64,000 nucleotides of DNA from Bilabrum cf. latius (GCA_965178125.1 OZ237771.1:186001-250000), one strand, 5' to 3'; counted from the stretch's first letter, positions 4,220 through 57,200 are shown. Notes: a model not told the origin generated them from the letters alone. Numbers and translations: made by a program.

Positions 4220-4705
4220 TCATGCACTCTTCTGCGCTGCCGCCTTCATCTCCGCTTCCTCCTCGGCGGCACGATGCCTCTGCCCGGTCCAGGCAGTGCC
4301 CCACAGCGTGGCCCAGCCCAGCGCCAGCAGCACAGCGCACGTGTACAGGTACGCATCAGTGTCCGTTGAGCTCCTGTACGCCTCGAACATGGCCCACCAG
4401 AAGAGTCCAACGAACAGGTACAGGATCAGGAAGAGCACCGTGATGATCAGGAGGTCCGCCGCAGAGTTGCCGCAGCACAGGATCTCGTAGCCTTCGATCT
4501 CCTGGGTCCAGCCAGTCCGCTTGTACTAGTTCTCCGGCTTCTGCTTCTCGGGGAGGATCTGCTGCTCGTACAGCTCGGTGAAGCGCTCGTCCTCGGACCG
4601 CATCAGGGCGGCGTGCTCAGCTGCCTTTCGGCTGGCGTCGGCCTTGGCCTGCTCCGCCTCCTCGTGCTTGGCAGCGGCGGCATCCGCGGAGCTCTTGCCG
4701 GTCAT
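4220..4705 (-). CDS. Small membrane protein (161 aa, two hydrophobic helices, charged N- and C-termini), function unknown
   Basis: ATG 4705 (MTGKSSADAAAAKHEEAEQ...), one in-frame TAG at 4526, then LLIITVLFLILYLFVGLFWWAMF and YLYTCAVLLALGWATLWGTAW, ending at TGA 4220-4222. GC-rich third codon positions. Confidence 0.65.
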
Positions 4706-5885
4706 CTCAACCTCTACCTGCTGCTGGTCGGCTACCTGCGAGTATCGATGTGACGAGTGAGGATGGTGCGTGCGTGTGTGTGTGCGCGAGCGGGCAAGGC
4801 AGGGGGTGGCTGGCGGGGGGTTGCGGGGACATGTCCAAGAGCAAGACACTTGGCTTTGATCATCCGCGCGCGATATACGCAACCGTGGGTCTGCTTTACA
4901 AACGCGACATGGGTTTATTGAAAGCGCCTCGGGGTAATCGGTAGTGTTGTGAGCATGCCGCGTGCGGGTCTCCTGCCACGGAAAGGCAGCACCAATCAGC
5001 CCAGGGCAAAGCACTCATGCGTAAGAAACGCTTTCCTATAGTCGATACCCTGTTTTTGCACCATTTTGGTACGACGCAGTGCGTAATGCCAACAATTGCG
5101 CCAAACAGGCGCCAAGCACGAAACGGCACGCAGCTCCCGTCACGCCGCAAACGCATTCGCGGGATCTATCTCTGGCACACAGACAAGCAGTACATCCAAG
5201 TAACCAATTACTAGAAAACCCACAAGACATCCCAAAAGCAATACAACCAGCGAAACAACAGAGTGCCAAGGGCAGCCATAAAGCATCGCGAACAGCAACG
5301 AGACGTCTGTGATTCTGTGAATCATGAAGTCCTATCTTACCGATGCAGCCTGCGACACGTTGAAACAAATAATCAGATGGTATTCGAGTGGATGCCCTTG
5401 TTGAAGGTGATGCAGGCAAACATAGAGGGGTGCGGTGCACCGCGCTGACCGTTCGGCTCATACAGTACATTGTAAACCCATTCAGCGGCACGGCAAGTCC
5501 CTATAATTAAGCGATCACATTATGATATACAGCAATAAGTCCATATCTTACCATTTTGGTTTACTTTAAGTGCCCGATGCGGCTAAAAGACCGAGCAAGA
5601 CGCTGCGCGTCTTTTTATAACGAGCAATTATACCATCGTAGTCTGTATTTTGGCAATGGCACCATTGTTTGGAACAATCCGACACCGCTCGATTATTTTC
5701 TGATCGGAACAACTGGTCACTGATAAATCATTCAGGAATTTTATAATATCAGTTGATCCAAGATCGGCTTGAGTTGGTGGAAATCTGGTAGTCGGTCCAT
5801 CAGTTGGATTGCAACCTTGGTAGTTGTCGTATTCCCCCTGTTTTGAAGTCTATCAGCGGCAGCAGCTACCTGATTTAATCCAAGT

Positions 5886-8800
5886 ATGAGTGGGCGTCGG
5901 AAACCAATGAAACCTACTCGTAGTGCATCCAATGAGGCGTCAGATGCAGGCACTAAAATCGATGCTCGGGAGATACCTGGCCTGTAGCAGCTGCAGCAGA
6001 AGTATTCAGACTTAGTTAGACAGAAGAAGACAAAGGAAGCAAGTAAGCTTAAGCGAGAACTTTCTTAGATGCTGGAACACCTAGACAAGGGTACACAGGC
6101 GCAGTCGCCTCGTTCAGGTGAATCCGAACGACAGGCTTCCTCATCGTCTGCAGCAACCAGCAGGCAGCAGGGCCTCTCCGGCGCGGATTCGGCCCATTTT
6201 GCATCCAATGGACACGCGATGACGCAGGACGCCCGCGCCCTCGGCCTGCGATCGAGTGACCGGCCTTTCGCGCTGACCGAGCACGAGCACGCGAGGTGGG
6301 AAGCCATCCACGCCTTTGGACCGGCCGCCACCGCGCACCTCCAGCGGGACGGCTGGTGTGTGACGAGCATTGCGTCGGAAGTGCTCGACGCGCTGGGCTG
6401 GGTGTAGAGGCAGGAGGTGGCACGACGCGGTCCCCTGCTGCACGTGCTGTTCCGGTTATTCGCAAGGGCCACGGTGGAGGTCGCGGCGGGCTGGGGCGGC
6501 GGGTTTATTTCGAGCCCGGACGGCTCGCCAGGGCAGGCATCGCACCAGTTACACTCATCACACGGAAATAGGGTAATCGATCTGGACGATGACGGCGAGC
6601 AGCAGCAGCAGCAGCAGCAGAATCAGAGTAGTCAGCAAGACAGCGAATCAGCTAGGCGCCGCGAATTGCGGAACTTACGAACACGACAAGGTGCCGCTGC
6701 AGCGGCCGGAGCGCTGGTCCGTCGTGTGGCCCCCTTATTTCACTCGTCACACCCACGGGAGTGCCTGCTGCTGGCGGGTGTCCTGGGGGCCAAGCCCGCG
6801 GCCGTGGGCGCCATGCTCCGCCGGGTGGACGGTCTTTTTGATTCCGGATTAACGGCCGCGTCGGCGCTGGAAGGCCTGCGAAAGCTTTAGGCTCCGAATC
6901 CTCGCGCGGCCGGGCAGGGCTTGTGGGGCGGGGTGTCGGGCGACGTCGTTGCAGGTGGGTACGTGCCTGACGCTGTGCGGCTGGGTGTAGGCGCGATGCG
7001 GATGCAGGCCCTTGGGGAACAATCTTCTTGGTTCGACCAGCAGCAGCTGAACACGATGGGGGTCGGCGGGCAGCAGATGTTGGCGGCTTCGCTGCGGTCA
7101 CTCCCTGCCTCGTCCAGGCGAGCAGCGGTATTGGCTAAAGTGGCGGGATTGGCCACCCGCCCCGACAGGTTCACCGTGGAGGAACAGGGGCAGGCGGAAC
7201 GGATCCACTCGTCACATGGGGGTTCGACTCAGCACTCATCACAGGGGGGATACGGGAGGCTAGAGAGCGGCCTGGGTCCGCTGGCTCAGTCCACTGTCGA
7301 TCTCATCGGGGCCGCCGAGAAGGACGGTCCCGGTTCCGCGGACCCACCCTAGTTGAATATGTCCGTTGAGGTCGTTGGTAGCGTTGCGTTAGAGCGAGAC
7401 ACGCCCCCAGCCGCGGCTGTGCGCCTGTGGCAGATGGCAGGCGTGCTGCCCTCCGCTCGTGGGACGGTCCCGTGTGACGAGTGGGACCCTTCCGGGGACC
7501 GAGACGGGCGGGAGCTGGAGGGCGTCGTGGCGGCGCTGGCCGGTCGGATCGTGGTTCCGCTGTCGCGCGGCGCCGCCGCGGGATTCCGCAGGCACTTGCG
7601 TATGCGCGGGTGCACGGCACTGCAGCAGCTGCTGGAAGGAGGCGCCGTTTGCCTCGCCGTTGGACCATCGATCCAGGGAACCATATAGGACGCTGTTCCC
7701 TGGGAACGGGGCTTCTACGGGGTTGGAACCTGGGCTGGGGACTTGTCGGTGCCGCGCCCCATGTCCCCGCTTCCCCCAGGGGAATACCCCCGGTTCGCCC
7801 TCCCCGGGGTTCCCGGAACAGAGCGAAGGTTCCTTGGGGTGGATTCCCTCAGCCCACCCCCCGTCCTCCTTTGGGGAACAACGGCATCTCTGTTCCTGCA
7901 CGCGTCCGGGGGGTGGTTCGATGGCTCCCACAAGCGCATCCGCAGGGAGCGGCAGCGGCTGCACGCCATCAAGCAAGACAGCAGACAGGGGCATGGCCAT
8001 GGGCATGGGCATGGACAGTCAAGCGGTGCGATGGCTGCGGGTCAAGCTCAGTCCAAGAAGATGATTCCGCGCCCAGTGAAGATGATTCCGCACTGGGCGC
8101 CAAAACACCTCCCGCTGCCCATCGACGGTGGCGGGCCCACCGCACTCGTCACAGCGGCTTGCTCGTCAACTGACGCAATCGTCACACCGTAGGAGGCGTT
8201 GGATTTTTATAAAGAGGCGGCTCCACTGATGCCACCAGTGCGCTCCCCGCATGCTGTGTTCTCGGAAGCCATGGATCGGGAGGCTGTCAGATACCACGAT
8301 GTGCAGAGGGAAATGAGCAGGGTGTAGGGGGGGAATAGAGGCAGGGGAGAAGGAGGGGGGCGGGGAAGTGGAGGGGATGCCGACTCCCAGTCTGGTAGCC
8401 AAGAGCCGATTCCGCCGATCGAACTCAACAAACACATATCGACCGCCATCAGCAAGATGTTCAGCCTGACGATAAAACAGGCAGACGGTGCCGGCTTAGA
8501 GGCGCTGAGGGTCGTTCGGAAGCAAGCATTGTCGGGTCGTTTCGCGAAATCCATGAGCTCCGGTGCGGGATACGTCGAGCCGGGGAACAGGCACGATCTA
8601 GCACTCCGGAACCACTCGTCACACCGAATGCAGCTGGTACTGGGTGTTGCGGCAGCGGTACGACAGGAGCTGGGATGGATCGGGCTCGCACTGGCCGTGG
8701 ATCACGTGCACTGCGCGAGGCTTCTGGCGCCGCGCACTGGCAGCGGAACCAAGGCGGGGCATGGGGAGGGTGCAGCGAGCGCCGAGGGTGCTCACTCGTC

Positions 8801-11576
8801 ACCCATTGTGGGGCAGAAAAGGCGCCGCGCACCGGAGGTAGGGGGTTCCGCTGCGAAGCCCGTGGGTGAGCAGGTGTCCGTTCGGCTGCCATCGGCGGTG
8901 TCATTTGTGGCCGGACGGGCGGCGCCGCGAGTCGAATCCACGGGTGGAGTAACCACTACAGGAGGTGGTCAAAGCGGCGGTGCTACCGGCCGATCGTTTC
9001 CGGAGAGTGGCGGTCCTACGTTCGTGTCGAGCAGCGTGTCGCCCGCGGGAGTGATCCTGGCAGGTGGGACGGCCCAGGGCTCGATCCACCTCTGGAAGCG
9101 GCCTCCCTCCCACCACGGTGCCGGTTTGGAGAATGACTCCGCCGGGTGGCGCGTGGACGGCTCCCAACCCGACGGCACTGTGCATGCGGAGGTGCCTGCC
9201 CACCCGGGTGCAGTGACCCACCTGGTGTGGTGCACACCCGACGCCCACATGTGGAGGGTGGTAGACGTCCAGAGGCCGGAATCGGGGCGTGAGAGCTGGA
9301 GCGGTGTGACGAGTAGTGCGTATGACGAGCAGGTGGGGGCCACCCACGAGGGAACACACCTGCTCAGCGGGGGAACAGACGGATCCGTGGCTCTCTGGGG
9401 ACTCCTGACGAGCGTGCCAGTGCCGCAGTGGGATGCACCTACCGGTGAGGGGCATAGCTCCTCTTCGGCCGCAGCGGGTGCGGGCGGCAAATCCAAGGCT
9501 AATTCAGGCACGGGATCAGGAGGTCCGCACCGGCTGCTCCTCCGGCCGCAGTGCGTGGCCCGATACGGCACCTTGCCCGGCGGATTCGGTTCCGGTTTCG
9601 GACCCGTGTGTTCCCTGGCCGCACACCCGTTGCTTCCATCGGTGTTTGCGTCGTCCGGAACGGACGGGGCGGTGAGGGTCTGGGACACGTCGGTTGCAAC
9701 CGGTCCCGGCCGTCTGCTGGTAGGCCACACAGGCGCTGTGAGGAGCCTGTGCTTCCATCCTCAGGGGGGGCTGCTGGCGACGGGCGGGGGCGCCGGTGAC
9801 GGGGCGGTGAGGATCTGGAGGCTGGAGGACGGCAGGTGCGTCAGGTCGCTGGTGGGTGGTCATACCGGCGGGGTCACTTCGGTGGAGTGGTCTCCCGGGG
9901 GTCGGTTTGTGGCCTCTGGGGATGACGAGGGCGGCGTGAGGCTGTGGGACGTGGCCAGAGGCGTGTGCCTGCCTTATTTGAGCAAGCCTGTGACGAGTGC
10001 GAGCGGGGGTGGTCAAAGCGGGGGGCACCGGTGGGCCGCGGCGGTGTCGCTGGCGTTCAGCCCCTGCGGCCAGGTGCTGGCAGCGGGGTACTCTGGCGGC
10101 ATGGTCGCGATGTTCTCCGTCAAAGCCCACGTGAGTGCCGGCACGGGCTAGGCCCTGCTCACCCCCGGGGAAAACCCCCTGGGGATATCACCCCCCGTGC
10201 AGGGGCGACCCCCCCACGCCAAGGCGGGTCAGCAGGGCGGCGCCGCTCAGTCTCCGGCGCCGCGCGATTCCGGTTCCGCCGTCTACGAGCCCCTGACGAT
10301 CCCGCAGGAGCCGCTGGAGGAAGGCCTGGAGGGCGATCGCGGTGTGACGAGTGACACCGGGATTGCAGCGTGGCGCGAATCGGCGGCAGACTCTGTGGGA
10401 CACGGGAGGCGGAACCGAAGGCCCGACGAGCTGATACGGGCCGGGGCGGGGAAAGGCCGCCCCGTGCTGGCGGGGCATGGGGGTGACCCCAGGGTGGAGC
10501 CGGGGGTGGAGGCAAACCCGGGGTTTCCCGCGGCGGGGGCATTGCGCGGCGCCGCTGCGGTTCCGCAGTCGCTCTCTCAGGCCGCCGCGGCCGCGGCCGA
10601 AAACGCGGAACGCGTGCGCAGGAGTCAGCTGGTCCATGTCAGCGCTTTGAAGAGATCGCAATAGGACAGCACCCGGTTCAACGAGGCCAGCAGCCGTAAG
10701 GCGCAGCTGATGAACTCGTCGAGCCACGGGGGTGGGCAGATGTCAGACGAGGAGGCAAGACGAATCACCGACTACAGCCGCATCCACGAAATGCAGAAAA
10801 AGTCGGTGGCTCTGGAACAGCGCCTTTGGAAGGGTGATTACGAAGGGTGGCCGTGCCTGGAGCGCCTGAAAGCTCCGAGGATGCCCAGCCTGCTGCGGCC
10901 GCAGGGCGGTGTGACGAGTGCGGCGCCGCTGATGCCGCCTTCGGTGGGCGGTCCCAGGCTAGGAGGCGCGCACGGTTCCGGTTTTCCAGCGACGCTCGAC
11001 GCCGCGGCGGGACTGCCCGGCAGCGGAACCGAAAGTTCCGCAGACGGCGCCGCGCACCATGGCATGGGGAGGTTCGGCGCGGGCGTCGGAACTGTGCCCA
11101 ACCAGGGGGCGGGGGCTAGTGCCGCCCTCGGCGCGCACATTCGTCACACTCTCATGGGCACGGAGTGCGTCGATCTCGGGGCCATGCGTGGGATCGTGTG
11201 GGCCACTGAGACCCCCGCAGGGGGAAGGGGGCCCGGGGGAAATCCCCTGAGCCCGTGGGGTCCGAGCGTGCTGGCCGTGACCAGGGTGCGGAATTGTTCC
11301 CTGAGGAACCTTCGCTTCACCACGCGCGGGGTTTTGCTTGTGGACGGAGTGCCGACGTCGCGGCCGGCCCCGGCGGCCCCTGCGTGGGGCGCAGATGCAT
11401 CGCACGGTAGTGCTAGTCCAGCTGGCGCGGATTGCGATCCGCGCGACCTCCCTCGCGCGCTGGGTGATGCGGATCCGCTTGCTGTCAGGGCGAGGGCGGT
11501 GGATGAGCTGGCGCAGAAAGCCGTGGTGTCTTCCTTGTCGCATGCATTTGCGACCAGGCTGGGACTGGCCAGCTGA
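5886..11576 (+). CDS. TAF5: TAF5/TAF5L-like WD40 repeat protein (TFIID/SAGA subunit-like), 1,896 aa with long low-complexity insertions; needs TAG read as sense
   Basis: Eight ORF-track pieces (6069...11576) are all in one frame. Ten in-frame TAGs (5985, 6066, 6405, 6888, 7350, 7686, 8190, 8325, 10149, 10662), ATG 5886, TGA 11574-11576. WD40 blades (LLSGGTDGSVALWGL; GHTGAVRSLCFHPQGGLLATG; CVRSLVGGHTGGVTSVEWSPGGRFVASGDDEGGVRLWDV), an upstream LPSAVSF segment and a C-terminal LRNLRFTTRGVLLVDG segment recall TAF5 motif order. The symbol is from motif recall, not a search. Confidence 0.7.
6600..6620 (+). repeat. (CAG)7 microsatellite encoding poly-Gln in the TAF5-like gene
   Basis: cagcagcagcagcagcagcag read directly, in frame. 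Confidence 0.9.
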
Positions 11577-11781: not shown

Positions 11782-13941
11782 ATGCGTGTTATCCCGACAT
11801 GCACCTTTTTTGCCATTGCGTGTTGGCTTACATTTGCGGATGAGCCGTATGGATCCATTCCGTGGCCTCAGCCAGGGCACGATGCGTAGCACACGCACGT
11901 CTCGGCGGCAAGCGGTCCTTCGGCCAAACAACCCATCTTCATCTGGTGCGAGCCAACGCAAAGCGAGCAATACCCGTTTATGAAAACAGAGAGTGTTACT
12001 GGCTCGGATGGAACGGTGGCTGTTACTGGCCAGAGTTCGCTCGTCGTTCGCGATGGGAACAGCGGTGCCCAGCTATACACCGTCCCATTCGGGGACGAAT
12101 TCGACCCACTGTCTTCGCCTACAACGATCGGCTCTGGACTGTATATTGTCACGAACGGGTTTATGGCCAAGCAGCAGCCAATTGGAGGAATGTTTGACGC
12201 CAAATCCGGCGATCTTCTGTATAGCTTCAAGGACTTTTCCTCCAGCCCACTGCAGATTGGATTTTCCCCAGCCTTTGATCACAGCAGCGGAAAAGTTGCA
12301 TTTGCAGCGGATGCCGGAGGGGCCGGTGGGACCGCACCAAACCTTGCGGTGTACCACGCGGCCAGCGGGGAGCAAATTGCAGGCACGCGGATCTCTGTGA
12401 ATCCGTAGTGCCGGCCCTCTTGCGGCAGCGGCTGCACATCGCTGTATACGGGCAGGGGCGCGATGTTCCTGTTTGATGCGACGACTGGTGCTGTCACAAA
12501 GTTTCCGAAGAATGGCTACTTTCAGAACATGATTACCTGTGTTAGCGTGGCAGCGGGTGGCAGTGGCGGCAACGATACGTCATTCGTCGCGGCCACCGTC
12601 AAACCGAGCGACTGCATCGCATTGCGGCATGAGCTGGAAGGCGCGGCCGAATCCTCCGGTGACGATGCCGGGCGCGGACGCGCCGGCAGCGTCATCTGCG
12701 GCGAGCTTCACTCGTCACACTACGATTCCCCCGACGCCGACGTTCCCATCCTCCTGGCCGTGGACAGCCCCGCCGGTGCCATCTCACCGAACGTTCGCTG
12801 GCAGTCGGGGCTGTCCCCCGTGCACCTGCCCAGGGGGGAGTACGAGGGCCCCGATACGGTGCTTGGCGCCCCCGCCATCGTGCAATGCACTCAGCCGGGG
12901 CCGGGCCAGGACCCGCTGGCCGGGACTGTCGTGCTCGTCACATCGGGGCACGCGGTGTCTGCGTTCAGCGCGTCCACCGGTGGATTCGAATGGATCGTGG
13001 CGCTGGACGACTGGGCCATCGGCTCCAGCGTCGGTTCCGACGGCGTTGCGTTTGTCAGCACCAACACCACGCTGCAGGCGATCGACGCCTGCAATGGAGG
13101 TAAGCAGGTCTGGAAGATGGACAACGCGGCAATCCGATCCTCAATCCAGCGATGGACTGGGGGTGGACTCGCAGTCGACGGGGTGAAGATCCATTCACTC
13201 CCCACCATCGGTCGCAACGAGTCGCTGTACCTGCAGATGCACTACAGGAAGGATGATCAGGGTGACGACGACGTCAGTGTGACGAGTGGTATGGTCGATG
13301 GGTGGGTGGGTGACGAGGAGCAGGATACTCCTCACACCGGCGGTCTGGAGCTCGGCACGTACCTCCTGTGTGCCCTGAGCTCCCAGCTCCTACCCCCCAG
13401 CCCGTCGCCCACACCCTCCACCAGCCCCACCCCATCGGCCTCCCCGAGTTTTGGGAGCTCCCCTTCGCCCTCCCCCACTCCCAGCATCCCTGCAACCCCC
13501 ACCCCTACCCCTGGGGGCAACCCCGGGGGTAGTCCAACGGTGTTCGACCTAAAACGGGTGATTCTCCTAGCCGCCGGGGTCGTGGTCGTGATAGGCTGCT
13601 GCGTGGGGTTCTGCTGCTACCAGGGAACAAGGGGGCGGGGGTAGCCAGGGGGAACAGCGGGGGACGGGGCACCCTTGCTAGTTGGGGGGGCGGGGGATGG
13701 TCGTGTTGTGGGGGGTGTACCCCGGGGGTCCATGGGGGCAGGGCAGGGGTACCCTGCGATTCCGACAGCATAGGTGATTGCAACAGGTCAAGTGGCTGGC
13801 ACCACAGGACCGCTGGGCTAGTCTCATGCCAGCGGGCAGGCGGGTAGCATTCAGGGCGGGCGGCAGCACCCCTACCCTGGTATGCAGGGTGGTGTCTATG
13901 CTGGAGCTCCCAACGATTACTACTCAACTGCTGGGCGGTGA
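11782..13941 (+). CDS. Type I membrane protein with PQQ-like/BamB-like beta-propeller ectodomain, Pro/Ser/Thr stalk, one TM helix and Gly/Gln-rich tail (719 aa); needs TAG read as sense
   Basis: ATG 11782 gives signal peptide MRVIPTCTFFAIACWLTFA. Then WPQPGHDA*HT (resembles the WP.xGHDAQHT start motif of PQQ-type propellers), blades such as VSAFSASTGGFEW and LQAIDACNGGKQVW, stalk PSPSPTPSTSPTPS, TM VILLAAGVVVVIGCCVGFCCY. TAGs at 11887, 12406, 13642, 13771, 13819; TGA 13939-13941. Confidence 0.8.
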
Positions 13942-14378: not shown

Positions 14379-14752
14379 GCTGGACCGCGTGAAAGCCATG
14401 GAAACGATCGGCAGCCACACTTGAACACAGGCATTCACCCTTCGTAGGCAAGGCTATCCTCTACATACTTGATTCAATCAACCTAATAATCTCATGAACG
14501 TATGTAAGCTTCGTTATTGAGGGCACATTTGTGAAACTTCGATGACATTCCAATATTCCGATACCACTCTGGTTTCGACCCGTGATCACGTGTTGATGAT
14601 ATTAGATCATTGAAATGATTATAAATATACGTCTTCAGAGATTTGACCAGCGCGATGACCTGATTTGGTATTGAATACCGCGTATATTAGGCCGAGATCG
14701 TAGTTGTTGCTAAAAGTGTCGGCCCAGACTGCTGTAGTTCTACGAATTCTGT

Positions 14753-44657: not shown

Positions 44658-47600
44658 TGCTGACTGTAGGCGTAGCCGATGGTGAGACAGAAGGGCATGC
44701 TGATGTGATAGGCCCGGCCGGTGGACCCCCAACGGATGCTATGTAGACTGCTCCTGCCTGTGGACCACCTGTTTCGTCTTGGTCGGCGCCGAATATGAGT
44801 TCCACACGACCGTCGCCATCGAGATCATTGATTGAACCTGATACACCCCACATTGTACCTGTGCTCAGCACGCCATTGATGCCTTGCGTGTTGATGTCCA
44901 GCACCGTGACGCCTTGTACGAGATTTACGGTGGTAGGCGAGGTGCAGCTGAGGTAGAAGATGAAGTTCTTGCCTGTGTCCTGACCACCCGTGTCGTCCGA
45001 GGGAGCACCCACAGCGATGTCCGTGATACCATCGCCGTTCATGTCACCAACATTGGCTACCCGAGACCCAAATTCAGACATTGCTTGAATGCTCCCAGCT
45101 GGTACCCCTTCCTGCCCATCCCTGATCACCCTCACGGATCCAGGCATGACAGTCCCGTTGGACTGAATGCCGAAGTAGACAACTGCGTCGCTCCCCCTCG
45201 CGCCTGCAACCAGGTCAATTGAATGAAGGGGGGATCGGGGCAGGATGGTTGCAATTGAAAACCCAAGGAGCCGCACCTGTGGCTGGATGGAACTCAGGCC
45301 AGTGGACTGGGAGATCTTGGTGGTGGAAGCCACGGTGTCATCACCGTTCATGATGTGGATGAAGATAACACCACCATCTTCGTCACCTCCAGAAGCAGCG
45401 GATGCAGTGACAGCGATATCAGTCATACCATCACCGTCCAAGTCACCGAGGTTACTGGAAGCCTGCCCGTACCTGCCTCCAACTGGCAGTGTACCTGTAG
45501 GAATGCCATTGAGTCCATTATGCAGCACCACCGTGTTGGTGACCGTGCCGCTTGCGTCCAGGCGGAAAATGTAGGCCCTCCCAGTGAGCGACTAGCCGTT
45601 CACATTGAGGAATGGCTGGCCCGCGACCACCCGCGGGTTTGCTCCGTCCTATCCGTTGGGCTGGTCGTAGCGACACAGACCAGACCCGAACTGTGATCCT
45701 GTCCTTGGCCCGTATCCAGACGCATATATATTTCCACCAGAACCCAGGTGGTACTCAGTGTAGCTGTCCACGGTCTTGTCGGCGTTCATCATTAGAATCG
45801 CGAAGGAGCCTGCGCCGGTGCCTCCCCCGCTGGCTTGGAACAGCGTGACGCCCATGTCCTCGACGGAGTCTCCGTTCATGTCTCCGAGTGATACAGCGTG
45901 GCGGCCAAACCAGTCGCCTGACCGCGGAAATCCCACCGGCAGTCCTGTCTGCCCGCTGGTGATCTTGACCATGGATACTACAGCGCCGACTGGTGCAGGC
46001 GAGGGGCTGGGGCTAGCCAACGGCAATGGCCCACGAATGCGAAGCATGCCTACTTCTTCGAACAGTGGCCTCGGCACCGCAATGAACGTGTCGATCATGC
46101 CCAGTGGCTGGTTTACGACCTGGTGATACACAGCAGGTCCCCTCCCAAACTGATGAGATGTAGTGTAGTTGATTGCCACTTGGTCACCCGTCGTAATTGT
46201 CTGATCCAGCGGTGGATGGAGCACTTGCCGAGCGAGAGGTATTTCGATCTCGTCGTGGTTGAGCTCCACAGCGACAAAGAAATGACCCTCACACCCAATG
46301 ATCAGCTCCTTCTACCCATCACCAGTCAGGTCTGCCATCTCAAGTCCCCTGTAGCACTCTCGCCCAGTACTATTGAAGCTATCCTCGATCTCTTCGCCTA
46401 TTATGTCGTTCAATGCCTCGTGCAGGGTGTCAATGCTCAGGCCAGCGGCCCCTCCCAGCTCGGCGAGGAACGGCTGCATCTTAGAAGACTGGTCCATAGC
46501 CGTGAAGGCAAGAAGGACCCGCGTGTCTCCATGCACGGGATCGATCCTCTCGCCCACGGAGGGAGCCATCAGCGATCCGTACCTCATGCCTGCACTTGGA
46601 AGCCCGCGAAGCACTATTTGAGGAGCAACAGCCTCTAAGATAGGAGCAAGAGGGTTCACTTCATAGGCCATAATCGCCCCGTCATCACTGTCAGCTCCCG
46701 GGACACCCACGTACAGCGTGCCCCATCCCTCCCAAAATGCTAGGGCTACCCCGATGTACGCGTTGTCGCGGTCGATGACCAAGCCAGAATTCCGCACAAC
46801 CGATGCACCGTATGATTCAGCAGACTCGACATACAACGGTCCATTTTCCGTTTGCTCACACAACCGCATTACTGTGAACCCACCTGCCCTGGAATAGGCC
46901 TACCCAAAGGACCAGTCCTCCGCCAGCGGTGTGCCCAGAGCGAGATCGGCGCAGTGCATGTGCATGCCGGGGAACCCGGGCCTCTCAACACCGGGCCCCA
47001 GTCCAACCACCACATGCCCAAACATGCTGTTCTCTGGAACGTGGCCGGGGCTGGTAAGTCCAATCGTCACACCGGGTTCGAAGACCTGTGTCGGTCCTGA
47101 AGGCAGGCTCGTGTTGGAATCAATGGGGGTGATGTATACTCGGCTCCTGATGGAGATCGGAGGGCCATTTAATCGGCGAGCAACTTGTTGGCTTGCACTT
47201 AAGACATCATCTGAACTCGGCTGGCCTCGGTCATGCTGTATAGGATCACGGCCGTATTCGGTAAGCCTGCGTACCACACCGCCGGGCCGCTCCAGGAAAT
47301 CAGGGATGCCGATTGGCTCAGGGAAGAAGTCGTTGTCTGCTGGCCCAGAGTCGTCCTCCCAGTGCTCGGTTGCAACCAGTGCTGTCTTGCCCCCGTACCG
47401 GATCACAGCCACAGAGTGCCCAAACTGCTCCTGTGTGGCAGCAGGTCGCATTGCCGTCGACGCGTTCCTAAGAATGGCATGCGCTTCGAGGTTCAGACCC
47501 ATGCTCGACCTAGGCGGGAGCTTGGGCTCAGGGGGAATCAGCTGCAGGAAGGCGATCGACTCTGTGTTAGGATTTGCAACAAATGCAACAACGATGCTGG

Positions 47601-49640
47601 TACGATTGGGGTGGGACACCCCTCGCACGACATCCTGGGCGACCATGTGCATTTGTGTTGGGACAATCCCGTTGAGCCCAGGAGATAGGACAGTCAGCTT
47701 GACTGCATCTTTCACCGGTTCAGCCCTCGAGCCGTCGCTCATGTACAGTACGAACAATGCACCCGAGTCTATCCCACCGGCATTTGAGATCGGCGCTGAC
47801 ACGATGGCATCCGCAACACCGTCAAGATTAAGATCTCCAGGCGAGACTATAAATTCGCCAAATGATGAATCAGATTCGATCAAACCGCTTGGTATACCGC
47901 CCTAGCCATCGAGAATGGCGACTGCTTGATCCGGATCAGGTACTAAACCACTACTAGTTATTTGCACGAGCGCCAACCCGTTGATACCATCTAGGTGCAA
48001 GTGGACTAACAGACCAGTGGGCTAATCGTAGCCTTGCAGCGGTATTGCGGCTATTCCGAAACCAAACAAGTTATGGAGTGGTAACCCGGCAATTGATGCA
48101 GAATCGAACCCCTCACCAACAGCCTGGCTCAGGCGGGTGAAGCTCTTGACGGTATCATCGCCAAGCATGAACAGGATGAAGATGGCACCCGATCCAGAGC
48201 CGCCATGCATGAGGTTGTAGGCTCTCACCACAACGTCAACATATCCATCAAGGTCCAAGTCGCCGATCGGGCTGATCGGGTCCCCGAAGTTTGCATACGG
48301 AGGCAAGGTGCCGGATGGCAGCCCGCCTTGACCGTCCCCAATGACCGTGCTGTTAGCTACTGTGCCGTTTGGACGCAGTCGTAGTATCACCACCATACCT
48401 CTGCCCTAAATCGCCACCTCATCGCAATTCGGACAGCCCACCAGCAGACGCACCATTCCAGGCTGGTCCCCCATTGGCTGCAGCAGAGCGGAGAGCCATG
48501 TACCAAGGAAATTATGCGGAGACCGGTTGATTGGAATCCCATCTTCGTTGCTTGAAAGCTTTGTTACGCCCAGAGCCGTGCCACCTTGCTGCATCCGGAT
48601 CACCCAGATCGCCCCCGTGTCTTCTCCAGCGGCGCTGTCGTCATCCGGTGCACCCACCGCAAGGTCAGGGGTGCCGTTCCCGTCGATGTCGTAGATGCTC
48701 GTCACTGCGAAGCCAAACCTATCCGTGGGATCCGTCAGGCTTGCGTTAAAGCCACCTTGGCCATTGCCAACCATGATCATACCATCCACCAGCGGCTCCT
48801 CGAGGGGCAGCGGAGACGGGGATGCCTGAAGCGAACGGTCGCTCCTTAGCGTTCGCGTGATTGGAAATCCCAGTGAGGGCATATTTTGGCTCCTATCTTC
48901 ACTAGATGATGCAAGTTTGCTTGCTCCAAAAGCATCGGTGCCGTCGGCCTGGCTGTTGCCCGCAGTTCCGACAGGATGTACACAAGTGGAACAAAAACCT
49001 GCGGCCTCATTGGTACAGACTAGGATATGCAGGCTTTGGTTCGCTAGCAAATACTGGTTATTCTTAATACATATCAATATTACTACAAGGTGGCAGTTGT
49101 AAGCTAGAGTAGCCCATCGTGCTATACCCGCAAGAGTTCGCAAATCCACGTCCTCACCACTACGGTCATCAGCTTGCTCAGCAAACTCCGCCGCTTCTAC
49201 TATCAGATTGGGCACAACTACAACAACAACTACAACTACTAACAATCTAGCGACTGCGAGGTTCAAACAGAATTCGTAGAACTACAGCTGTCTGGGCCGA
49301 CACTTTTAGCAACAACTACGATCTCGGCCTAATATACGCGGTATTCAATACCAGATCAGGTCATCGTGCTGGTCAAATCTCTGAAGACATATATTTATAA
49401 TCATTTCAACGATCTAATACCATCAACACGTGATCATGGGTTGAAACCAGAGTGGTATCGGAATATTGGAATGTCGTCGAAGTTTCACAAATGTACCCTC
49501 AATAACGAAGCTTACATACGTTCATGAGATTGTTAGGTTGATTGAATCAAGTATGTAGAGGATAGCCTTGCCTACGAAGAGTGAATGCCTGTGTTCAAGT
49601 GTGGCTGCCGATCGTTTCCATGGCTTTCACGCGGTCCAGC

Positions 49641-50099: not shown

Positions 50100-51431
50100 T
50101 CACTGCCCAGCGGTTGAGTAGTAATCGTTGGGAGCTTCAGCATAGACACCACCCTGCATACCAGGGTATTGGTGCTGCTGCCCGCCCTGAATGCTCCCCG
50201 CCTGCCCACTGGCATGAGACTGGCCCAGCGGTCCTGTGGTGCCAGCCACTTGTCCCGTTGCAATCACCTGTGCTGTCGGAATCGCAGGGTACCCCTGCCC
50301 TGCCCCCATGGACCCCCGGGGTACACCCCCCACAACACGACCATCCCCCGCCCCCCCCAACTAGCAAGGGTGCCCCATCCCCCGCTGATCCCCCTGGCTA
50401 CCCCCGCCCCCTTGTTCCCTGGTAGCAGCAGAACCCCACGTAGCAGCCTATCACGACCACGACTCCGGCCGCCAGGAGAATCACCCGTTTTAGGTCGAAC
50501 ACCGTTGGACTACCCCCGGGGTTGCCCCCAGGTGTGGGGGTGGGGGTGGCAGGGATGCTGGGAGTGGGGGAGGGCGAAGGGGAGCTCCCGAAACTTGGGG
50601 AGGCCGATGGGGTGGGGCTGGTGGAGGGGGTGGTCGACGGGCTGGGGGGTAGGAGCTGGGAGCTCAGGGCACACAGGAGATACGTGCCGAGCTCCAGACC
50701 CCCGGTGGGAGGAGTATCCTGCTCCTCGTCACCCACCCACCCATCGACCATACCACTCGTCACACTGACGTCGTCGTCACCCTGATCATCCTTCCTGTAG
50801 TGCATCTGCAGGTACAGCGACTAGTTGCGACCGATGGTGGGAAGAGAATGGATCTTCACCCCGTCGAGAGCGAGTCCACCCCCAGTCCATCGCTGGATTG
50901 AGGATCGGATTGCCGCGTTGTCCATCTTCCATACCTGCTTATCCCCATTGTAGGCGTCGATCGCCTGCACCGTGGTGTTGGTGCTGACGAACGCAACGCC
51001 GTCGGAACCAACGCTGGAGCCGATGACCCCGATGTGACGAGCACGACAGTCCCGGCCAGCGGGTCCTGCCCCGGTCCCGGATGGGTGCATTGCACGATGG
51101 CGGGGGCGCCAAGCACCGTATCGGGGCCCTCGTACTCCCCCCTGGGCAGGTGCACGGGGGAAAAGCTGTGCTGTCCACTGCCAGGAGGATCAAAACGTCG
51201 GCGTCGGGAGAATCGAAGTGTGACGAGTGAAGCTCGCCGCAGAGGACGCTGCCGGCGCGTCTGCGCCCGGTATCGTTACCGGAGGATTCGACCGCGCCTT
51301 CCAGCTCGCGCTGCAGTGCGATGCAGTGGCTCAGCTTGACGGTGGCAGCTACGAATTGCGTGTCATTACGGCCACTACCGCCTGCTCCCCCCGCTGCCAA
51401 GCTAACACAGGTAATCATGTTCTGAATGTAG
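50100..51431 (-). pseudogene. 5'-truncated, frameshifted duplicate of the PQQ-like propeller gene (11782-13941)
   Basis: Homologous to 12516-13941 but lacks the signal peptide and first third. It has internal deletions, and the homologous peptides fall in different frames (ORF pieces ending 51448, 51155, 51090/50805, 50360). Confidence 0.85.
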
Positions 51432-51464: not shown

Positions 51465-53150
51465 TTACTTGCATCTCGGAAGCCAGTTGAAGGTGTTCGG
51501 AGCCGCCTCTCCTACAATGTTTTCGTTCCCCAGGAGGCAATGCGCTGTGAGGTTCGGATCCATGCTCGGGCTTGTCGGGTCCTATGGCTCTTGGGGTGCC
51601 AGCTGCAGGAACGCGATCGACTCTGTGTTTCGCTCTGCAAGGAACCCAACCACAATGCTGGTACGATTAGGGTGGGCGGTCCCATGCAACACATCCACAG
51701 CGATCATGTACTATTGTGCAGGCATGAGCCCGAAGAGTCCAGGCGACAGCACGGTCAGCTTTACTGCATCTTTCACCGGCTCCGTCATTGAGCCATCGTT
51801 CATGTAAAGCAGGAACAATGCGCCAGAATCCAACCCACCGACATTCGAAAACGGCGCTGATACAATAGCGTCAGCGATTCCGTCAAAGTCAAGATCTCCA
51901 GCTGGGATAATGAATTCGCCAAAGGCTGAGTTGGGTTCTACTTGTCCGGAGGGTACCCCGCCCACGCCGTCGTAAATGGCGACCGGTCCCACTAGCGAGA
52001 TGCCTTCGCTTGAAAGTTGGACTAGCCCGACACCATTGATACCATCTAGGTGCAAATGCAGAAGCAATCCAGTCGAATGGTCGTAGCCCTACAGAGGCAA
52101 ACTGGCAATTCCACCCCCGACCAAGTCTTGTAATGCCGCTGCTTGAAAAGTGGGACTGTCGAATCCCTCGCCTGCCGCCTGGCTCAGTCGGATTGTGTTC
52201 CTGACAGTGTCGTCACCGCGCATGAAGAGGATGAAAATAGCCCCTCGACCAGGGCCTAAGGGCGCGAGCTATGGGGCTCGCACTGCAACATCTTCAAATC
52301 CATCAAGGTCAAGGTCGCTGGTGGTGCATATTGATCCACCGAACTCTCCAGACCGGCCCAGCGTGCCTGATGGCAGCCCGCCTTGACCGTCCCCAATGAT
52401 CGTGCTGTTGGCTACTGTGCCGTTTGGACGCAGACGAAGGATCATCACCACACCTCTGTACTCTATACCAAACCTATCGCAATTCGGACAGCCCACCAGC
52501 AGACGCACCATTCCAGGCTGGTCTCCCATTGGCTGCAGCAGAGCGGAGAGCGACGTACCAAGGGCATCATAGGGAGACCGGTTGATTGGAATCCCATCTT
52601 CGTTGCTTGAAAGCTTTGTTACGCCCAGAGCCGTGCCACCTTGCTGCATCCGGATCACCCAGATCGCCCCCGTGTCTTCTCCAGCGGCGCTGTCGTCACC
52701 CGGCGCACCCACCGCTAGGTCAGGGGCGCCGTTCCCGTCGATGTCGTAGATGCTCGTCGCAGCAAAACCAAAAGTGTCCGTTGCGCTGATTGAGCTAGTA
52801 TCTAAATTTCCTTGGCCGGCACCAAGCATCGCCACTGCATCTATTGGCGGCTTCCCACTAGGCCGGGGAGCTGGCGGTGCCTGTAGCTCGCGATTGTTCC
52901 GGTCCGTCCGCGGATCCAATGATTCCAATGGAAACTTGATTGTCGCCAGTGTGTCTTGATTAATATTTCTTTCGGAATACGCTTGCTCTTTCTTTTCTAG
53001 GAAGGCGGTATAGTCTACTTGGCTTGTACGTAACAGCTCTACATGATGTACACATGTTGGATGGAAGCCTGCGGACAACTTGAAGCACAAAGAATCAAAT
53101 GGTAGCCAATTCATGCCGAGATTTATCACTTCATTGTAATTATAAATCAT
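51465..53150 (-). pseudogene. Third, more diverged and 3'-truncated paralogue of the receptor N-terminus (FG-GAP repeats only, ~560 codons)
   Basis: One frame with TAGs at 52269, 52089, 51711, 51582. Aligns to copy A ~15008-16550; similarity fades at ~51520 and the frame ends at TAA 51465-51467, next to the duplication breakpoint. Could be a short expressed gene. Confidence 0.7.
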
Positions 53151-53897: not shown

Positions 53898-54294
53898 AAC
53901 AGCGCCCTGCTCGTTTTCAGCATCCGGCATCTCGATCTTGCAGGTTTAGTTATGTCTATCTGCCACAAGACCATGGTACTCGATTTAATGTTTACACTTG
54001 TGCCTTGCGTGCTTTGAATCTGAGAGTGCATCCAACCACTCCAGGCTTCCAGTGGCGGTCGCTCGTGACGGCAACAGATGGGCTATTTCAATTCACTATT
54101 ATGCATCATTCAATGAGATGAAAGGAGGCAAGGAAACGGAAATCATCACATTCCATCGGAGGGCCTGTCCCAGCCCCGTCAAAACAAGTAGCCAACGGCG
54201 TTGTCTTGTCAGACCAGACGCCGCCAGAGGCTGCCGCGAAAGCCGGGACAGTAACCCAACGGTAGGGGGCCCCGTCGCTTGCCTCCACCCCCCT

Positions 54295-57200
54295 TCACGG
54301 CAGCGGGCCCCGTCGCTTGCCCCCACCCTCCTGTGCCCCCATCGTGTCTGCAAGCGTCGGCCGCAGCCAGGGATGGGCCCTCGCCTGTTCCGCACTGAGC
54401 CTCCTCAAAGGGTCCCGCTGCAGCAGACCGCCGATCAGATCGATGGCATCGGGGCTCACACCGTCCCAGGCCTCCGGCTCGAAGAGCACGTCTCTCGAGA
54501 GGCAGCGGCTGGCGGGCTCGAACGGGAGGAAGCCCGCAAGCAACTCGAATAGAATCACGCCCAGGGCCCAGCAGTCCACGGCAGTGCCGTACGGTTTCTG
54601 AGCCAGCACCTCGGGAGCGATGTAGCCCTGGGTCCCAGTCATGGCCTCGAAAGGAACAAGCCCTACGTCCCCAGTCACCTTGTAGTACCGGGCGTCCCGC
54701 GACCGCCTGGCATGGCCAAAGTCGCACAGTTTGACCACGTCGTACACGCCCAGGAGCCCCGCGCCCCGCTTGCCCAGACGCTCCACGGACAGCAGCACGT
54801 TCTCTGGCTTGAGATCGCCGTGGAGAACCTTCTTCTCGCCGTGGAGGTAAGCCAGTGCCTCGAGCAGCTGGTCGGCGACTCGCTTGGCCTGCCTCTCGCT
54901 CAGGAAGCCCTGGCGAGTGCGGCCCGGCATGGCGGGCATGGGGTAGCCATACCCGCTCGACAGAGCGGTGGATACCGAAGCAGTGCTAGCCCCAACCCCT
55001 CCTGACGCGCTCCGCATCGGGCTGATGTTTGACCCGGGGATAGAGGGGCTCTCAGCGCCCAACGCGGATACTCCACCGGTAGCTGCAGGCTGTGCCGCGG
55101 CACTCTGTTTCTTTTTCTGCTGCGCTTTGGCCGCCTCTCTCTCCCTAGCTGCCTGCCTGTACTGCCGCCTCAACTTGCCCTGTCGGATCCCCTCCTCCCT
55201 CATGTACGCCTGGAGGGTGCCGCCTGTGACGCACTCCATGACTAGGAAAAGATACTCTGAATTCTCAAAGGCGTCCCAGCAGCGGACGATATGCCTATGT
55301 CTCATGGCCCTTGACAGCTGCACTTCCCTGGCTACGCAGGCGCGATCCTCGGCAGTCTGCAGGTAGGCTTTCCGGATGCACTTGACCGCAACCTGCTGCT
55401 GGTGTCCCCCTCGATGGCCGTGGTGGCTGTGGTGGTGGTGTGCGGCAGCAGATGGCCTCGTTTTTCCGCCGGCGTGGCTCGAACCGGAGATCGACCTGCC
55501 CTTGCGACCAGCAGACGCATACGACTGGGATTTCCTGGTCCCAACCTGCACCTTGGCGTAACCTCCGTCACCGAGTGTCTTGCCCAGCTCGAAATAGTCT
55601 TCCAGCTTCCTCCTGCCTGCCCCATCGCTCGTGTCAGGCAGAGCCTTCCATTCAGTGGAGGATGACGAGGAGCTGTTTTTCTTGGGCTGCCGCGTCGCTT
55701 TTGGGACTGATGCCGACCGTTCCTGTCCATCGTCAGCACCGGAACCAGCTGCACCATCGTGCCGTGCACCGTCAGCTGCAGACAAGTTCCTGGCCGCAAA
55801 TTCCTGCCACTCCTTGCCGAGGAGGGAGGGGGCGGTATGGCGCGGAGGCGGCTCGCTTTCGATTCCGAATCCAAGGTGAGGCGGCGGGTCGGTGCCCTGG
55901 GTACCGCGAGCCGCTACCCGCTTCACGGGCGAGTCTGGAATCCCGTGCACATCGCGGCCGGCAACGCCGCCATCGAATCTCCCAGGGATGTACAGGCCGG
56001 TGACAGCCGTCGAGGAACTTTCGACCGAGGCACCACGCTGCATTTCGGTAAGCTCCGATACATCAGGAGAAGCATCGTGCTGTTCCGGCGGCTGGTTCCG
56101 TCGGTGCCCTGCTCCGATCGTTGTGAGGCTGCCGAATGTAGATGCCTCACCCCGTGCACCACCCACAGAATCGCCGCGATCTGGCGGCCGGTCGAGGCTT
56201 GAGTCGGGCCGTGCGATACGTTGGCCTGCACGTTCTTGAAGTCCACTGGAATACTTGCCGTCGTCATCGCCGAAGGGCCCTTCCCCAGCGCTGCCAATGC
56301 CCGCCCCTACGTCGCTGCCACCTGCCCGCATCGCACGCCCAATGAGGTATGGCCTTGGGGTCTCCATCCCTCCTCTATCCCCAGTGGCAGAGCCCTCCTC
56401 CACACCCATCCATAGAGCCGTTGAGCCAGAGGCAGCCGTGGCACCATCGTCGCCCGACCCGGGTCCGGTGCTCTGTCCGCTCCGCTGACCGGGCCGTCGG
56501 ATCCTCATCCGATCATCGATCCGATCATCGATCCGATCATTGATCCGATCCTTGGAGGAGGCCCTGCCCCGGGCGAACGCCATCAGCTCGCCCACAGGTG
56601 ACCCTGGGGAAGCGCTCCTGCGCCCATCGCTGGCGAGCTCGCCTCTGGGCGTGGGCGGGTGCACGTCGAAGTGACCATCGTCATCGTCGTCGTCGTCATC
56701 ATCGTTGTCGTCTTCAATATCGTCATCATCGACATCTTCATCCCTTCCTCCCTCGGGGCCTGAGCCATCGCTGGCGCTGCTTGCACTGGCATATCGGTCT
56801 GCCTTCTTGGTCCTGCGCCAGGCGCTGCTCCCCGCCCTTGAGGAACCGTGATACTCGCTAGCCTCGGCTGAATCCACCGATGGATTGGTTCCTACCCGGT
56901 CGCGACCCGACCCCGGAGTCTGACCATGCCCGGCCAATCTGTCACCGGCCCTGCGATCAGACCCGCGAGGGAGGTCCAGAGCCAATCCACCTTCCAAATC
57001 ATGCCGTTCTCGCGGGTCCATCCCGCGCTGGACATCGCGACTTTCAGCATCAGTCGTCCCACCGCCGGCTTGTTGCTCTTCCATGTCCAGCCCGCTGCTG
57101 TAGTGGTTCGGTTCCGTCTCCGTTTCGTCTTCCTCTGTCTCACCCGTTGGACCTAGGCTAGCCCCGTGCGGAACACGCCAGCGACCCGCCCTTCCGCCGC

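What the first reader, a model, noticed from the sequence alone, without database searches (positions are those of the whole stretch)
4220..54297. UAG and UAA are uncoupled: TAA never appears as sense and all visible intact genes end in TGA
Seen: termini at 4220, 11574, 13939, 28166, 28454 and 54295 are all TGA. CAA codons are common in these genes, yet no in-frame TAA was found over more than 11,000 codons, versus dozens of TAGs. The only TAA-ending frame is the truncated paralogue (51465). Known: in most eukaryotes with reassigned stops (ciliates, hexamitid diplomonads, some ulvophytes) UAA and UAG change together; codes separating them are rare. Inference: a CUA-anticodon-only suppressor tRNA plus an eRF1 that discriminates UAG from UAA. 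Caveat: high GC could keep a sense TAA rare.
Basis: partly seen in the sequence, partly recalled or inferred. Interest (0 to 1): 0.85.

Follow-up and report, generated by a model that had tools for sequence, protein, structure and literature searches.

The report
UAG-only stop-to-glutamine nuclear genetic code
This stretch of a GC-rich protist nuclear genome reads the stop codon TAG as an amino acid (most likely glutamine) while never using TAA inside genes and ending its genes with TGA, a rare but already described kind of genetic code.

Summary
In nine reading frames (16,517 codons) there are 65 in-frame TAG, 0 TAA and 0 TGA. The other five frames of the same DNA hold 34-66 TAA each. If TAA were synonymous with TAG, 16-34 in-frame TAA would be expected. 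P(0) is 1e-8 with near-duplicate genes removed.

The only TAA end (51465) closes a truncated copy at a rearrangement junction.

TAG most likely means Gln. A close relative's protein fragments have Q at 3 of 3 covered TAG sites, and paralogues show TAG/CAG exchanges. RNA-like contigs with GT..AG splice joints carry the TAGs unchanged.

The window cannot show three things:
- Whether TAA actually terminates: only five termini are independent, and 0 TAA among them has P 0.17-0.33.
- Whether a tRNA-Gln(CUA) exists.
- What the eRF1 looks like. There is no tRNA in the window and no genome is held.

UAG-only reassignments have been in print since 2017 (Iotanema, a rhizarian, Scotinosphaera, several ciliates). 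This is therefore a new member of a known kind, possibly from a stramenopile-like lineage, and unusual in ending genes with TGA. Interest 0.6.

The parts
3..2768 (-). Gene A: FG-GAP-like repeat protein, 3' part runs off the window. 922 codons, 5 in-frame TAG, 0 TAA, 0 TGA.
4220..4702 (-). Gene S: small membrane protein of about 160 aa, highly covered in the RNA-like runs. 1 in-frame TAG. Terminator TGA at 4220-4222. Transcript contigs span about 4109-5350.
5886..11576 (+). Gene C: 1896-aa WD40 protein. 10 in-frame TAG. Terminator TGA at 11574-11576. RNA-like contigs run on to 11594-11619.
11782..13941 (+). Gene D: 719-aa PQQ_2-type beta-propeller membrane protein. 5 in-frame TAG. Terminator TGA at 13939-13941. 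RNA-like contigs run on to about 14216.
14494..28168 (+). Gene E: giant FG-GAP / GPS-motif membrane protein. Exons 14494-14503, 14766-14849 and 15009-28168. GT..AG introns at 14504-14765 and 14850-15008. 15 in-frame TAG. Terminator TGA at 28166-28168.
28454..32290 (-). F: the 3' half of a paralogue of E (92% identical to E residues 3129-4383). 5 in-frame TAG. Terminator TGA at 28454-28456, homologous to E's terminator.
33821..38798 (.). Satellite DNA between G and F: 107-bp arrays at 33821-34409 and 35223-35678, and a 112-bp array of 27.6 copies at 35712-38798. All three frames are open by repetition, so it is not coding.
39178..49266 (-). G: the 5' half of the same E paralogue (91-96% identical to E residues 1-3128). 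8 in-frame TAG. The TGA at 39178 lies 35 codons past the end of homology (39283), so it may not be the natural terminator.
50103..51430 (-). D': degraded copy of the 3' part of gene D (94% nt identity, with indels of 9, 37, 67 and 1 nt). It gives TAG/CAG comparisons at D codons 663 and 679, a shared TAG at codon 620, and keeps the TGA terminator.
51465..53150 (-). H: truncated E-like paralogue (64% aa identity to E residues 1-511). 4 in-frame TAG. Ends in TAA at 51465-51467, at the junction with D' and inside a GTAAGA donor-like motif.
54295..63999 (-). Gene I: protein of more than 3234 aa, long disordered region plus a C-terminal Ser/Thr kinase domain. 12 in-frame TAG. Terminator TGA at 54295-54297. 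The 5' end runs off the window.

Best explanation
The window is nuclear DNA of a GC-rich (about 60%), intron-poor protist that uses a variant genetic code. UAG is an ordinary sense codon, most likely glutamine, at about 4 per 1000 codons and roughly 9% of Gln codons. UGA terminates every intact gene seen. UAA is excluded from reading frames as strictly as UGA, so it is not a sense codon.

The likely mechanism is inferred, not shown. A tRNA-Gln with anticodon CUA, which pairs with UAG but cannot read UAA, supplies the amino acid. An eRF1 whose recognition of the third-position G after UA is weakened lets that tRNA win at UAG, while UGA (and probably UAA) are still released.

This is the type of code described for Iotanema spirale and some ciliates (NCBI table 15-like). 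The difference here is that UGA rather than UAA is the working terminator, as expected in GC-rich DNA.
For: 1. TAG is sense. Reading TAG as sense turns fragmented frames into ORFs of 4471, 3362, 3230, 1896, 1278 and 719 codons. These ORFs carry WD40, PQQ_2, FG-GAP/GPS and Pkinase domains.

2. TAA is not sense. In frame there are 65 TAG, 0 TAA and 0 TGA in 16,517 codons, against 34-66 TAA in each of the other five frames. P(0 TAA) is at most 7e-7 if TAA tracked A-ending synonymous codons, and 1.3e-8 after removing the near-duplicates F and G.

3. Termini. Six of six intact termini are TGA.

4. No editing. The contigs of runs X5-X7 look like RNA: they have gene-wise depth, and X5 and X7 each have two GT..AG joints. 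Their listed pieces cover 15 of the 16 TAG codons of genes S, C and D with no differing letter (TAG coordinates worked out by hand from the codon indices).

5. TAG means Gln.
- Protein fragments of a close relative (84-88% identical: P0121/P0140 and P0122/P0141) have Q at all 3 TAG sites of gene C that they cover, codons 60, 173 and 600.
- Within-window paralogues pair TAG with CAG at E3965/F757, D663 and D679.
- In the internal repeat motif DG-x-GG-[IV]-P, the TAG aligns with Q in 4 of E's 5 other repeats.

6. TAG is not context-dependent near gene ends. Sense TAGs lie as close as 39-63 codons to the terminators, and none terminates a gene.

7. Decoding logic. A CUA anticodon is the only one that reads UAG and not UAA. 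This follows the argument of PMC5304391, section 9 (read).
Against: No tRNA gene, no Rfam match and no eRF1 gene lie in the window, and no genome is held. The tRNA and eRF1 parts are therefore untested.

No intact gene ends in TAA, so the window does not show that UAA terminates.

The Gln assignment rests on few sites. CAG is also the nearest transition neighbour of TAG, so TAG/CAG exchanges are expected mutationally whatever TAG means. More distant homologues have A, S, R, A and R at five TAG alignments covering four TAG sites (variable columns). One paralogue pair shows TAG/ATG and one shows GAG/TAG.

That X5-X7 are RNA is the tool's guess. It marks X5 'probably DNA', and I infer RNA only from the splice joints and the depth pattern.

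Only about 12,000 independent codons from one 64-kb locus were seen, and much of that is one gene family.
Confidence: 0.8

Rival explanations
1. UGA is the only terminator and UAA is an unassigned codon, neither decoded nor efficiently released. eRF1 would have lost both UAR codons, as in ciliates that stop only at UGA, while only a CUA-anticodon tRNA arose.
For: There are 0 TAA in frame and 0 TAA among the six intact termini. The one TAA end closes a truncated, rearranged copy.
Against: Zero TAA among 5-6 termini is expected 12-33% of the time even if TAA ends 20-30% of genes. In every described UAG-only nuclear code that I read about, UAA is kept as a stop (PMC5304391 abstract and section 9; PMC11687900 passages). 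An in-frame TAA follows F's TGA 18 codons downstream, which carries no weight either way.
Confidence: 0.13
2. This is an ordinary table 6-type code in which both UAA and UAG mean Gln, and TAA is merely rare because the genome is GC-rich.
For: GC3 is 0.53-0.73 in these genes, so A-ending codons are the minority.
Against: A-ending partners still make up 19.5-34% of the purine-ending pairs (CAA 204 against CAG 471). That predicts 16-34 TAA where 0 are seen, with P from 7e-7 to 2e-12, and 1.3e-8 after de-duplication. TAA is as absent in frame as TGA, although it occurs 34-66 times in each other frame.
Confidence: 0.02
3. UAG is sense but encodes an amino acid other than glutamine. Described alternatives are Leu in the rhizarian exLh and some ciliates, Ser in Scotinosphaera and Glu in one ciliate.
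For: Distant homologues show A, S or R at TAG columns. One internal repeat has L where another has TAG. TAG/CAG exchanges could be plain transitions.
Against: Close-relative fragments have Q at 3 of 3 sites. There are three TAG/CAG paralogue pairs, and no TAG/Leu-codon or TAG/Ser-codon pair appeared in any paralogue comparison. The contexts are hydrophilic and Q-rich, for example GL[TAG]QLQQ.
Confidence: 0.05
4. The code is ambiguous or context-dependent: UAG is read as sense inside genes but also terminates near mRNA 3' ends, as stop codons do in Condylostoma, karyorelicts or Amoebophrya sp. Kv.
For: This cannot be excluded from six termini.
Against: None of the six termini is TAG. Sense TAGs occur 39, 40 and 63 codons before the terminators and are spread over the whole gene length. 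There is no in-frame TGA or TAA, unlike the all-three-codon ambiguous codes.
Confidence: 0.03
5. The in-frame TAGs are not translated. They would be pseudogene lesions or assembly errors, or be removed by RNA editing or splicing.
For: The window does hold degraded copies (D', and H's truncation). A few introns exist.
Against: Frames of up to 4471 codons contain 65 TAG but not one TGA or TAA. Independent runs reproduce the sequence. RNA-like spliced contigs carry the TAGs unchanged, with 0 other letters in the listed pieces. Highly covered genes S and D contain TAG.
Confidence: 0.01

Closest known systems
Iotanema spirale (Fornicata) nuclear code: UAG = Gln, with UAA and UGA as stops (Panek et al. 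2017, PMC5304391; abstract and section 9 read)
   Same: UAG alone is reassigned, apparently to glutamine. UAA is kept out of reading frames. The same logic predicts a tRNA-Gln(CUA).
   Different: In I. spirale UAA is the primary terminator, whereas here all six intact termini are TGA and none is TAA. The lineage is different: the best named homologue here is from the stramenopile Cafeteria. The eRF1 GTS-to-GGS change reported for I. spirale could not be looked for.
Ciliates with UAG-only reassignment to Gln: Protocruzia tuzeti, Hartmannula sinica, Trochilia petrani; NCBI table 15-type (McGowan et al. 2024, PMC11687900; passages read)
   Same: UAG = Gln with UAA retained, and no dual use of UAG.
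   Different: In those ciliates 93.5-100% of C-terminal alignments end at UAA. Here a 64-kb GC-rich locus has giant genes that all end in TGA. I saw no sign of ciliate affinity: the best named hit of the one named-database search was Cafeteria. From recall, with no call made, those ciliate genomes are AT-rich.
Table 6-type codes with UAA and UAG both Gln: many ciliates, hexamitin diplomonads, Ulvophyceae, Streblomastix, Amoeboaphelidium (listed in PMC11687900 and PMC5304391)
   Same: Stop-to-glutamine reassignment of UAG, with UGA as terminator.
   Different: UAA is not sense here: 0 of 16,517 in-frame codons.
UAG-only reassignments to other amino acids: rhizarian exLh (Leu), phyllopharyngean MAGs (Leu), Scotinosphaera (Ser), Oligohymenophorea sp. 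PL0344 (UAG = Glu, UAA = Lys) (PMC5304391; PMC11687900 passage; PMC10553269 abstract only)
   Same: UAG and UAA are uncoupled.
   Different: The amino acid differs. Relatives and paralogues here point to Gln, not Leu, Ser or Glu.

Membership tests
UAG-only stop-to-Gln nuclear code (table 15-type; Iotanema, Protocruzia, some phyllopharyngeans) | UAG occurs in frame in genuine protein-coding genes | tested here: met
   There are 65 in-frame TAG in nine frames, four of which carry Pfam domains. The ORFs reach 4471 codons only if TAG is read as sense.
UAG-only stop-to-Gln nuclear code (table 15-type; Iotanema, Protocruzia, some phyllopharyngeans) | UAG positions correspond to glutamine in homologues | tested here: met
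   Close-relative fragments have Q at 3 of 3 covered sites, and there are three TAG/CAG paralogue pairs. The sample is small. Five alignments to distant homologues, covering four TAG sites, fall in variable columns (A, S, R, A, R).
UAG-only stop-to-Gln nuclear code (table 15-type; Iotanema, Protocruzia, some phyllopharyngeans) | UAA is absent from reading frames | tested here: met
   There are 0 TAA in 16,517 in-frame codons, against 34-66 in each other frame. P is at most 7e-7 under coupling.
UAG-only stop-to-Gln nuclear code (table 15-type; Iotanema, Protocruzia, some phyllopharyngeans) | UAA is used as a terminator | tested here: inconclusive
   None of the six intact termini is TAA. The only TAA end closes the truncated copy H at a rearrangement junction. 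With so few termini the absence is not significant.
UAG-only stop-to-Gln nuclear code (table 15-type; Iotanema, Protocruzia, some phyllopharyngeans) | UAG is not used as a terminator | tested here: met
   None of the six termini is TAG, and sense TAGs occur up to 39-63 codons before the stops. This covers the window only.
UAG-only stop-to-Gln nuclear code (table 15-type; Iotanema, Protocruzia, some phyllopharyngeans) | A tRNA-Gln with anticodon CUA exists and none with UUA | not testable with these tools
   There is no tRNA in the window, no Rfam match and no genome held.
UAG-only stop-to-Gln nuclear code (table 15-type; Iotanema, Protocruzia, some phyllopharyngeans) | eRF1 is altered in its stop-codon recognition motifs (for example GTS) | not testable with these tools
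Table 6-type code (UAA and UAG = Gln) | UAA is used as a sense codon alongside UAG | tested here: not met
   There are 0 in-frame TAA against 65 TAG.
Ambiguous stop/sense codes (Condylostoma, karyorelicts, Blastocrithidia, Amoebophrya sp. Kv) | The same codon serves as both sense and terminator, and UGA also occurs in frame | tested here: not met
   There are 0 in-frame TGA and 0 TAG terminators, and TGA ends all six genes.
UAG = Leu codes (rhizarian exLh; table 16-like) | UAG aligns to leucine in homologues | tested here: not met
   No TAG site aligned to Leu in close relatives or paralogues. One internal repeat has L at the motif position.

The most novel reading that the evidence does not exclude
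This lineage, possibly stramenopile (bicosoecid-like), evolved UAG = Gln independently and now runs on a single stop codon, UGA. UAA would be left unassigned, neither decoded nor used to terminate. That would be a three-way split of the stop codons (one stop, one sense, one unassigned) that, to my recollection and in the papers I read here, has not been described for a nuclear genome. It would also be the first nuclear code change reported in stramenopiles.
Probability: 0.12. Interest if true: 0.8.

Novelty: new member of a known kind. Interest (0 to 1): 0.6.

Why it matters
Codes that separate UAG from UAA were unknown until 2017 and are still known from only a handful of lineages. Each independent origin tests the idea that the coupling of the two codons is a habit of wobble-reading tRNAs and eRF1 rather than a hard constraint.

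This case differs from the described ones. The genome is GC-rich, and UGA rather than UAA is the working stop codon. It could therefore show whether eRF1 keeps reading UAA when it is hardly needed. The DNA is also present in several public runs, so the organism's tRNA set, eRF1 and proteome should be within reach.

There is a practical consequence as well. Gene calling on this organism with the standard code shatters its genes. Relatives' proteins in public collections look like such short fragments (P0121 and P0122, 172-185 aa, on contigs of 1.4-2.6 kb).

Tried and rejected
Closed or unavailable:
- Whole-genome tally: no genome is held.

No result in the window:
- tRNA scan and Rfam scan found nothing.

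Relatives' DNA:
- Two metagenome scans found no relative.
- So no codon-level comparison with another species was possible.

Protein searches for close relatives:
- Gene E gave only distant FG-GAP proteins (12 hits, 27-37% identity).
- Gene D gave one hit at 47% identity that covers no TAG site.

ESM Atlas: only generic kinase and PQQ clusters, with no lineage information.

Sequencing runs: no listed holder is on record as RNA. The RNA nature of X5-X7 is my inference.

Candidate intron near the end of gene C: one low-depth X6 contig skips 11313-11425 (113 nt). It has no GT..AG in any allowed register, and a deeper X5 contig is continuous there. I did not treat it as an intron.

ORF B (3591-4760, +): dropped as non-coding. 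Its coding score is -0.03, it lies antisense to gene S, and it has no convincing family.

Splicing H past its TAA: the GTAAGA donor at 51468 joined to the AG acceptor at 51422 gives a frame that hits TGA after two codons (read by eye). This gave no support for read-on.

Literature: five full-text searches gave no report of a nuclear code change in stramenopiles or bicosoecids. Supplementary tables of the code papers were not seen and might list further lineages.
Full report
**What the window is.**
The 64-kb window is 59.6% G+C. Under the standard code it shows only fragmented frames. Reading TAG as sense gives ORFs of 4471, 3362, 3230, 1896, 1278 and 719 codons. Allowing TAA as sense as well adds at most 13 codons, at 5' ends only.

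The products are eukaryotic in type:
- a WD40 protein (C);
- a PQQ_2 beta-propeller membrane protein (D);
- giant FG-GAP / GPS-motif membrane proteins (E, with paralogues G+F, H and A);
- a very long protein with a C-terminal Ser/Thr kinase domain (I).

The best named homologue of the kinase part is a Cafeteria roenbergensis protein: 41% identity, 85% coverage, 262 bits, against 130 bits for the next named hit. This is a weak hint of a stramenopile, bicosoecid-like affinity and nothing more. Two Atlas look-ups added no lineage information.

**Transcript evidence.**
Public runs hold the stretch 3400-15400 essentially letter for letter. Three of them (X5-X7) behave like RNA.
- Their depth follows genes: high over 4202-5404 and 11821-14226, and near zero in intergenic bins.
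- X5 and X7 each carry two GT..AG joints, 14503>14766 and 14848>15008.

The sequence confirms these as introns with GTAAGC and GTGAGG donors. Gene E therefore starts at an ATG at 14494 and has two small 5' introns. The genome is intron-poor, not intron-less.

The listed contig pieces of these runs cover 15 of the 16 TAG codons of genes S, C and D with no differing letter. I compared the piece coordinates with the TAG positions by hand. This argues against RNA editing of TAG. Caveat: the tool labels the RNA nature of these runs a guess and marks X5 'probably DNA'.

**The observation.**
With frames fixed (E counted from 15011), nine frames give 16,517 in-frame codons with 65 TAG, 0 TAA and 0 TGA. 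The other five frames of the same DNA carry 34-66 TAA, 101-156 TAG and 144-386 TGA each. TAA is thus excluded from reading frames exactly as TGA is, while TAG is tolerated.

It fails because A-ending codons are not rare:

| Pair | Counts |
|---|---|
| CAA / CAG | 204 / 471 |
| GAA / GAG | 229 / 443 |
| AAA / AAG | 72 / 194 |
| TTA / TTG | 40 / 165 |

Under coupling 16-34 TAA are expected, with P(0) from 7e-7 to 2e-12. After dropping F and G, which are 92-96% identical to E, 11,877 codons remain with 52 TAG and 0 TAA, and P = 1.3e-8.

**Termini.**
RNA-like contigs run past three of them, to about 4109, 11594-11619 and about 14216. E and F end at homologous positions, so five termini are independent. 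Zero TAA among five has P 0.17-0.33 if TAA ended 20-30% of genes. The TGA monopoly is therefore real in the window but not statistically meaningful.

The seventh TGA, at 39178 (G), lies 35 codons beyond the point where G stops matching E (39283). F picks up the match at 32281. G and F are therefore two halves of one E-paralogue separated by 6.9 kb that holds 107-bp and 112-bp satellites.

The only TAA end (H, 51465-51467) closes a truncated E-like copy. It sits exactly where that copy abuts a degraded copy of gene D (D', 50103-51430, with indels of 37, 67 and 1 nt) and lies inside a GTAAGA donor-like motif. It is not a native terminator.

**What TAG encodes.**
The one whole-library HMMER job, run with the first 1200 residues of C, found 7 proteins. 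Two are short fragments from a close relative, and each has a second cluster member (P0121/P0140 and P0122/P0141, 84-88% identical, from Logan contigs). They span three of C's ten TAG codons and have Q at all three.

More distant homologues (P0123-P0125, 37-56% identity over the aligned part; 36-54% in the HMMER listing) have A, S, R, A and R at five TAG alignments covering four sites. These columns are variable and carry little information.

Within the window:
- TAG pairs with CAG at E3965/F757, D663/D' and D679/D'.
- TAG pairs with CAA at E4408/F1214 (E against F) and at H353, opposite E406 and G410 (H against E and G).
- The odd pairs in the closest copies (E/G, D/D') are one ATG and one GAG.
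- In the more divergent pairs with H and A, TAG also pairs with GAG, AAC, CAT, GTG, AAG and others.
- In E's internal repeat motif DG-x-GG-[IV]-P, the TAG aligns with Q in four of the five other repeats and with L in one.

Gln is the best-supported meaning. The evidence is thin, and CAG is also TAG's nearest transition neighbour.

P0140 begins three codons after the position of C's TAG 488. P0121 and P0122 are 172-185-aa ORFs on contigs of 1.4-2.6 kb. This fits a relative whose genes are likewise broken by TAG under standard-code gene calling, but I have no DNA to show it.

**Mechanism (inferred).**
A tRNA that reads UAG but not UAA must carry anticodon CUA. Termination at UAG must also be weakened. 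This is the argument of Panek et al. 2017 (PMC5304391, section 9, read). They report a T32G change in the GTS motif of I. spirale eRF1. This is also cited in PMC9161772 (passages read).

Neither component can be examined here: there is no tRNA, no Rfam hit and no genome. Because no intact gene ends in TAA, an alternative stays open in which eRF1 reads only UGA and UAA is unassigned. I give it about 0.13.

**Comparison with what is known.**
UAG-only reassignments in print, as listed in the passages I read of PMC11687900 and in PMC5304391, are:
- a rhizarian (Leu);
- Iotanema spirale (Gln);
- Scotinosphaera (Ser);
- Protocruzia and several phyllopharyngean ciliates (Gln or Leu);
- a ciliate in which UAA and UAG encode different amino acids.

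In those cases UAA remains the dominant stop, at 93.5-100% in the ciliates. Here the working stop is UGA.

Five full-text searches returned no report of such a code in stramenopiles or in any GC-rich flagellate. Supplementary files were not seen.

I therefore file this as a new member of a known kind. Its mechanistic part remains to be tested on the whole genome.

Noticed in passing
window 14494-15010: Gene E has two small spliceosomal introns (14504-14765 and 14850-15008, GT..AG). They are seen as joints in the contigs of runs X5 and X7, and they place the start codon at 14494. The genome is intron-poor rather than intron-less.
   Followed up: yes
window 28454-49266 (-): G and F are the 5' and 3' halves of one paralogue of gene E, split by 6.9 kb that carries satellites (112 bp x 27.6 copies at 35712-38798; 107-bp arrays at 33821-34409 and 35223-35678). 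A GTAAGA donor at 39257 and a CAG acceptor at 32284 would join them in frame. So this may be one gene with a giant satellite-bearing intron, or a gene broken by an insertion.
   Followed up: partly
window 50103-53150 (-): This is a chimeric remnant. A truncated E-like 5' part (H, 64% aa identity to E) abuts a degraded copy of the 3' part of gene D (94% nt identity, with frame-breaking indels of 37, 67 and 1 nt). It looks like the product of unequal recombination in a D-E tandem array. D' still ends in TGA.
   Followed up: partly
window 11313-11425: One low-depth contig of run X6 skips 113 nt near the 3' end of gene C. There are no GT..AG ends, and 3 nt of microhomology flank the skip. A deeper X5 contig is continuous there. 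It is probably an assembly or deletion variant, not an intron.
   Followed up: partly
window 3400-15400: Letter-identical sequence is held by runs filed under three different coded organism labels (A, B, C) in three studies. The organism may travel as a co-cultured or associated microbe. I did not pursue identities.
   Followed up: no
proteins P0121, P0122, P0140, P0141, P0123 (relatives of gene C): The relatives' predicted proteins are short ORFs (172-195 aa) on longer contigs (0.9-2.6 kb). P0140 starts three codons after the position of C's TAG 488. This suggests that the 84-88% relative, and perhaps the 54% relative, also have in-frame TAG.
   Followed up: partly
all nine frames: The base after a sense TAG is G 27, T 19, C 10 and A 9. 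After CAG it is C 190, G 152, A 71 and T 58. Sense TAG is thus followed by T more often and by C less often than its presumed synonym. Significance was not tested.
   Followed up: no
window about 19240-20076 and 43601-44983: The Ser/Pro/Thr-rich tandem peptide repeat (SSPSTSPTPSV-like) differs in copy number between E and its paralogue G. The opposite strand there gives long spurious ORFs with a high coding score.
   Followed up: no
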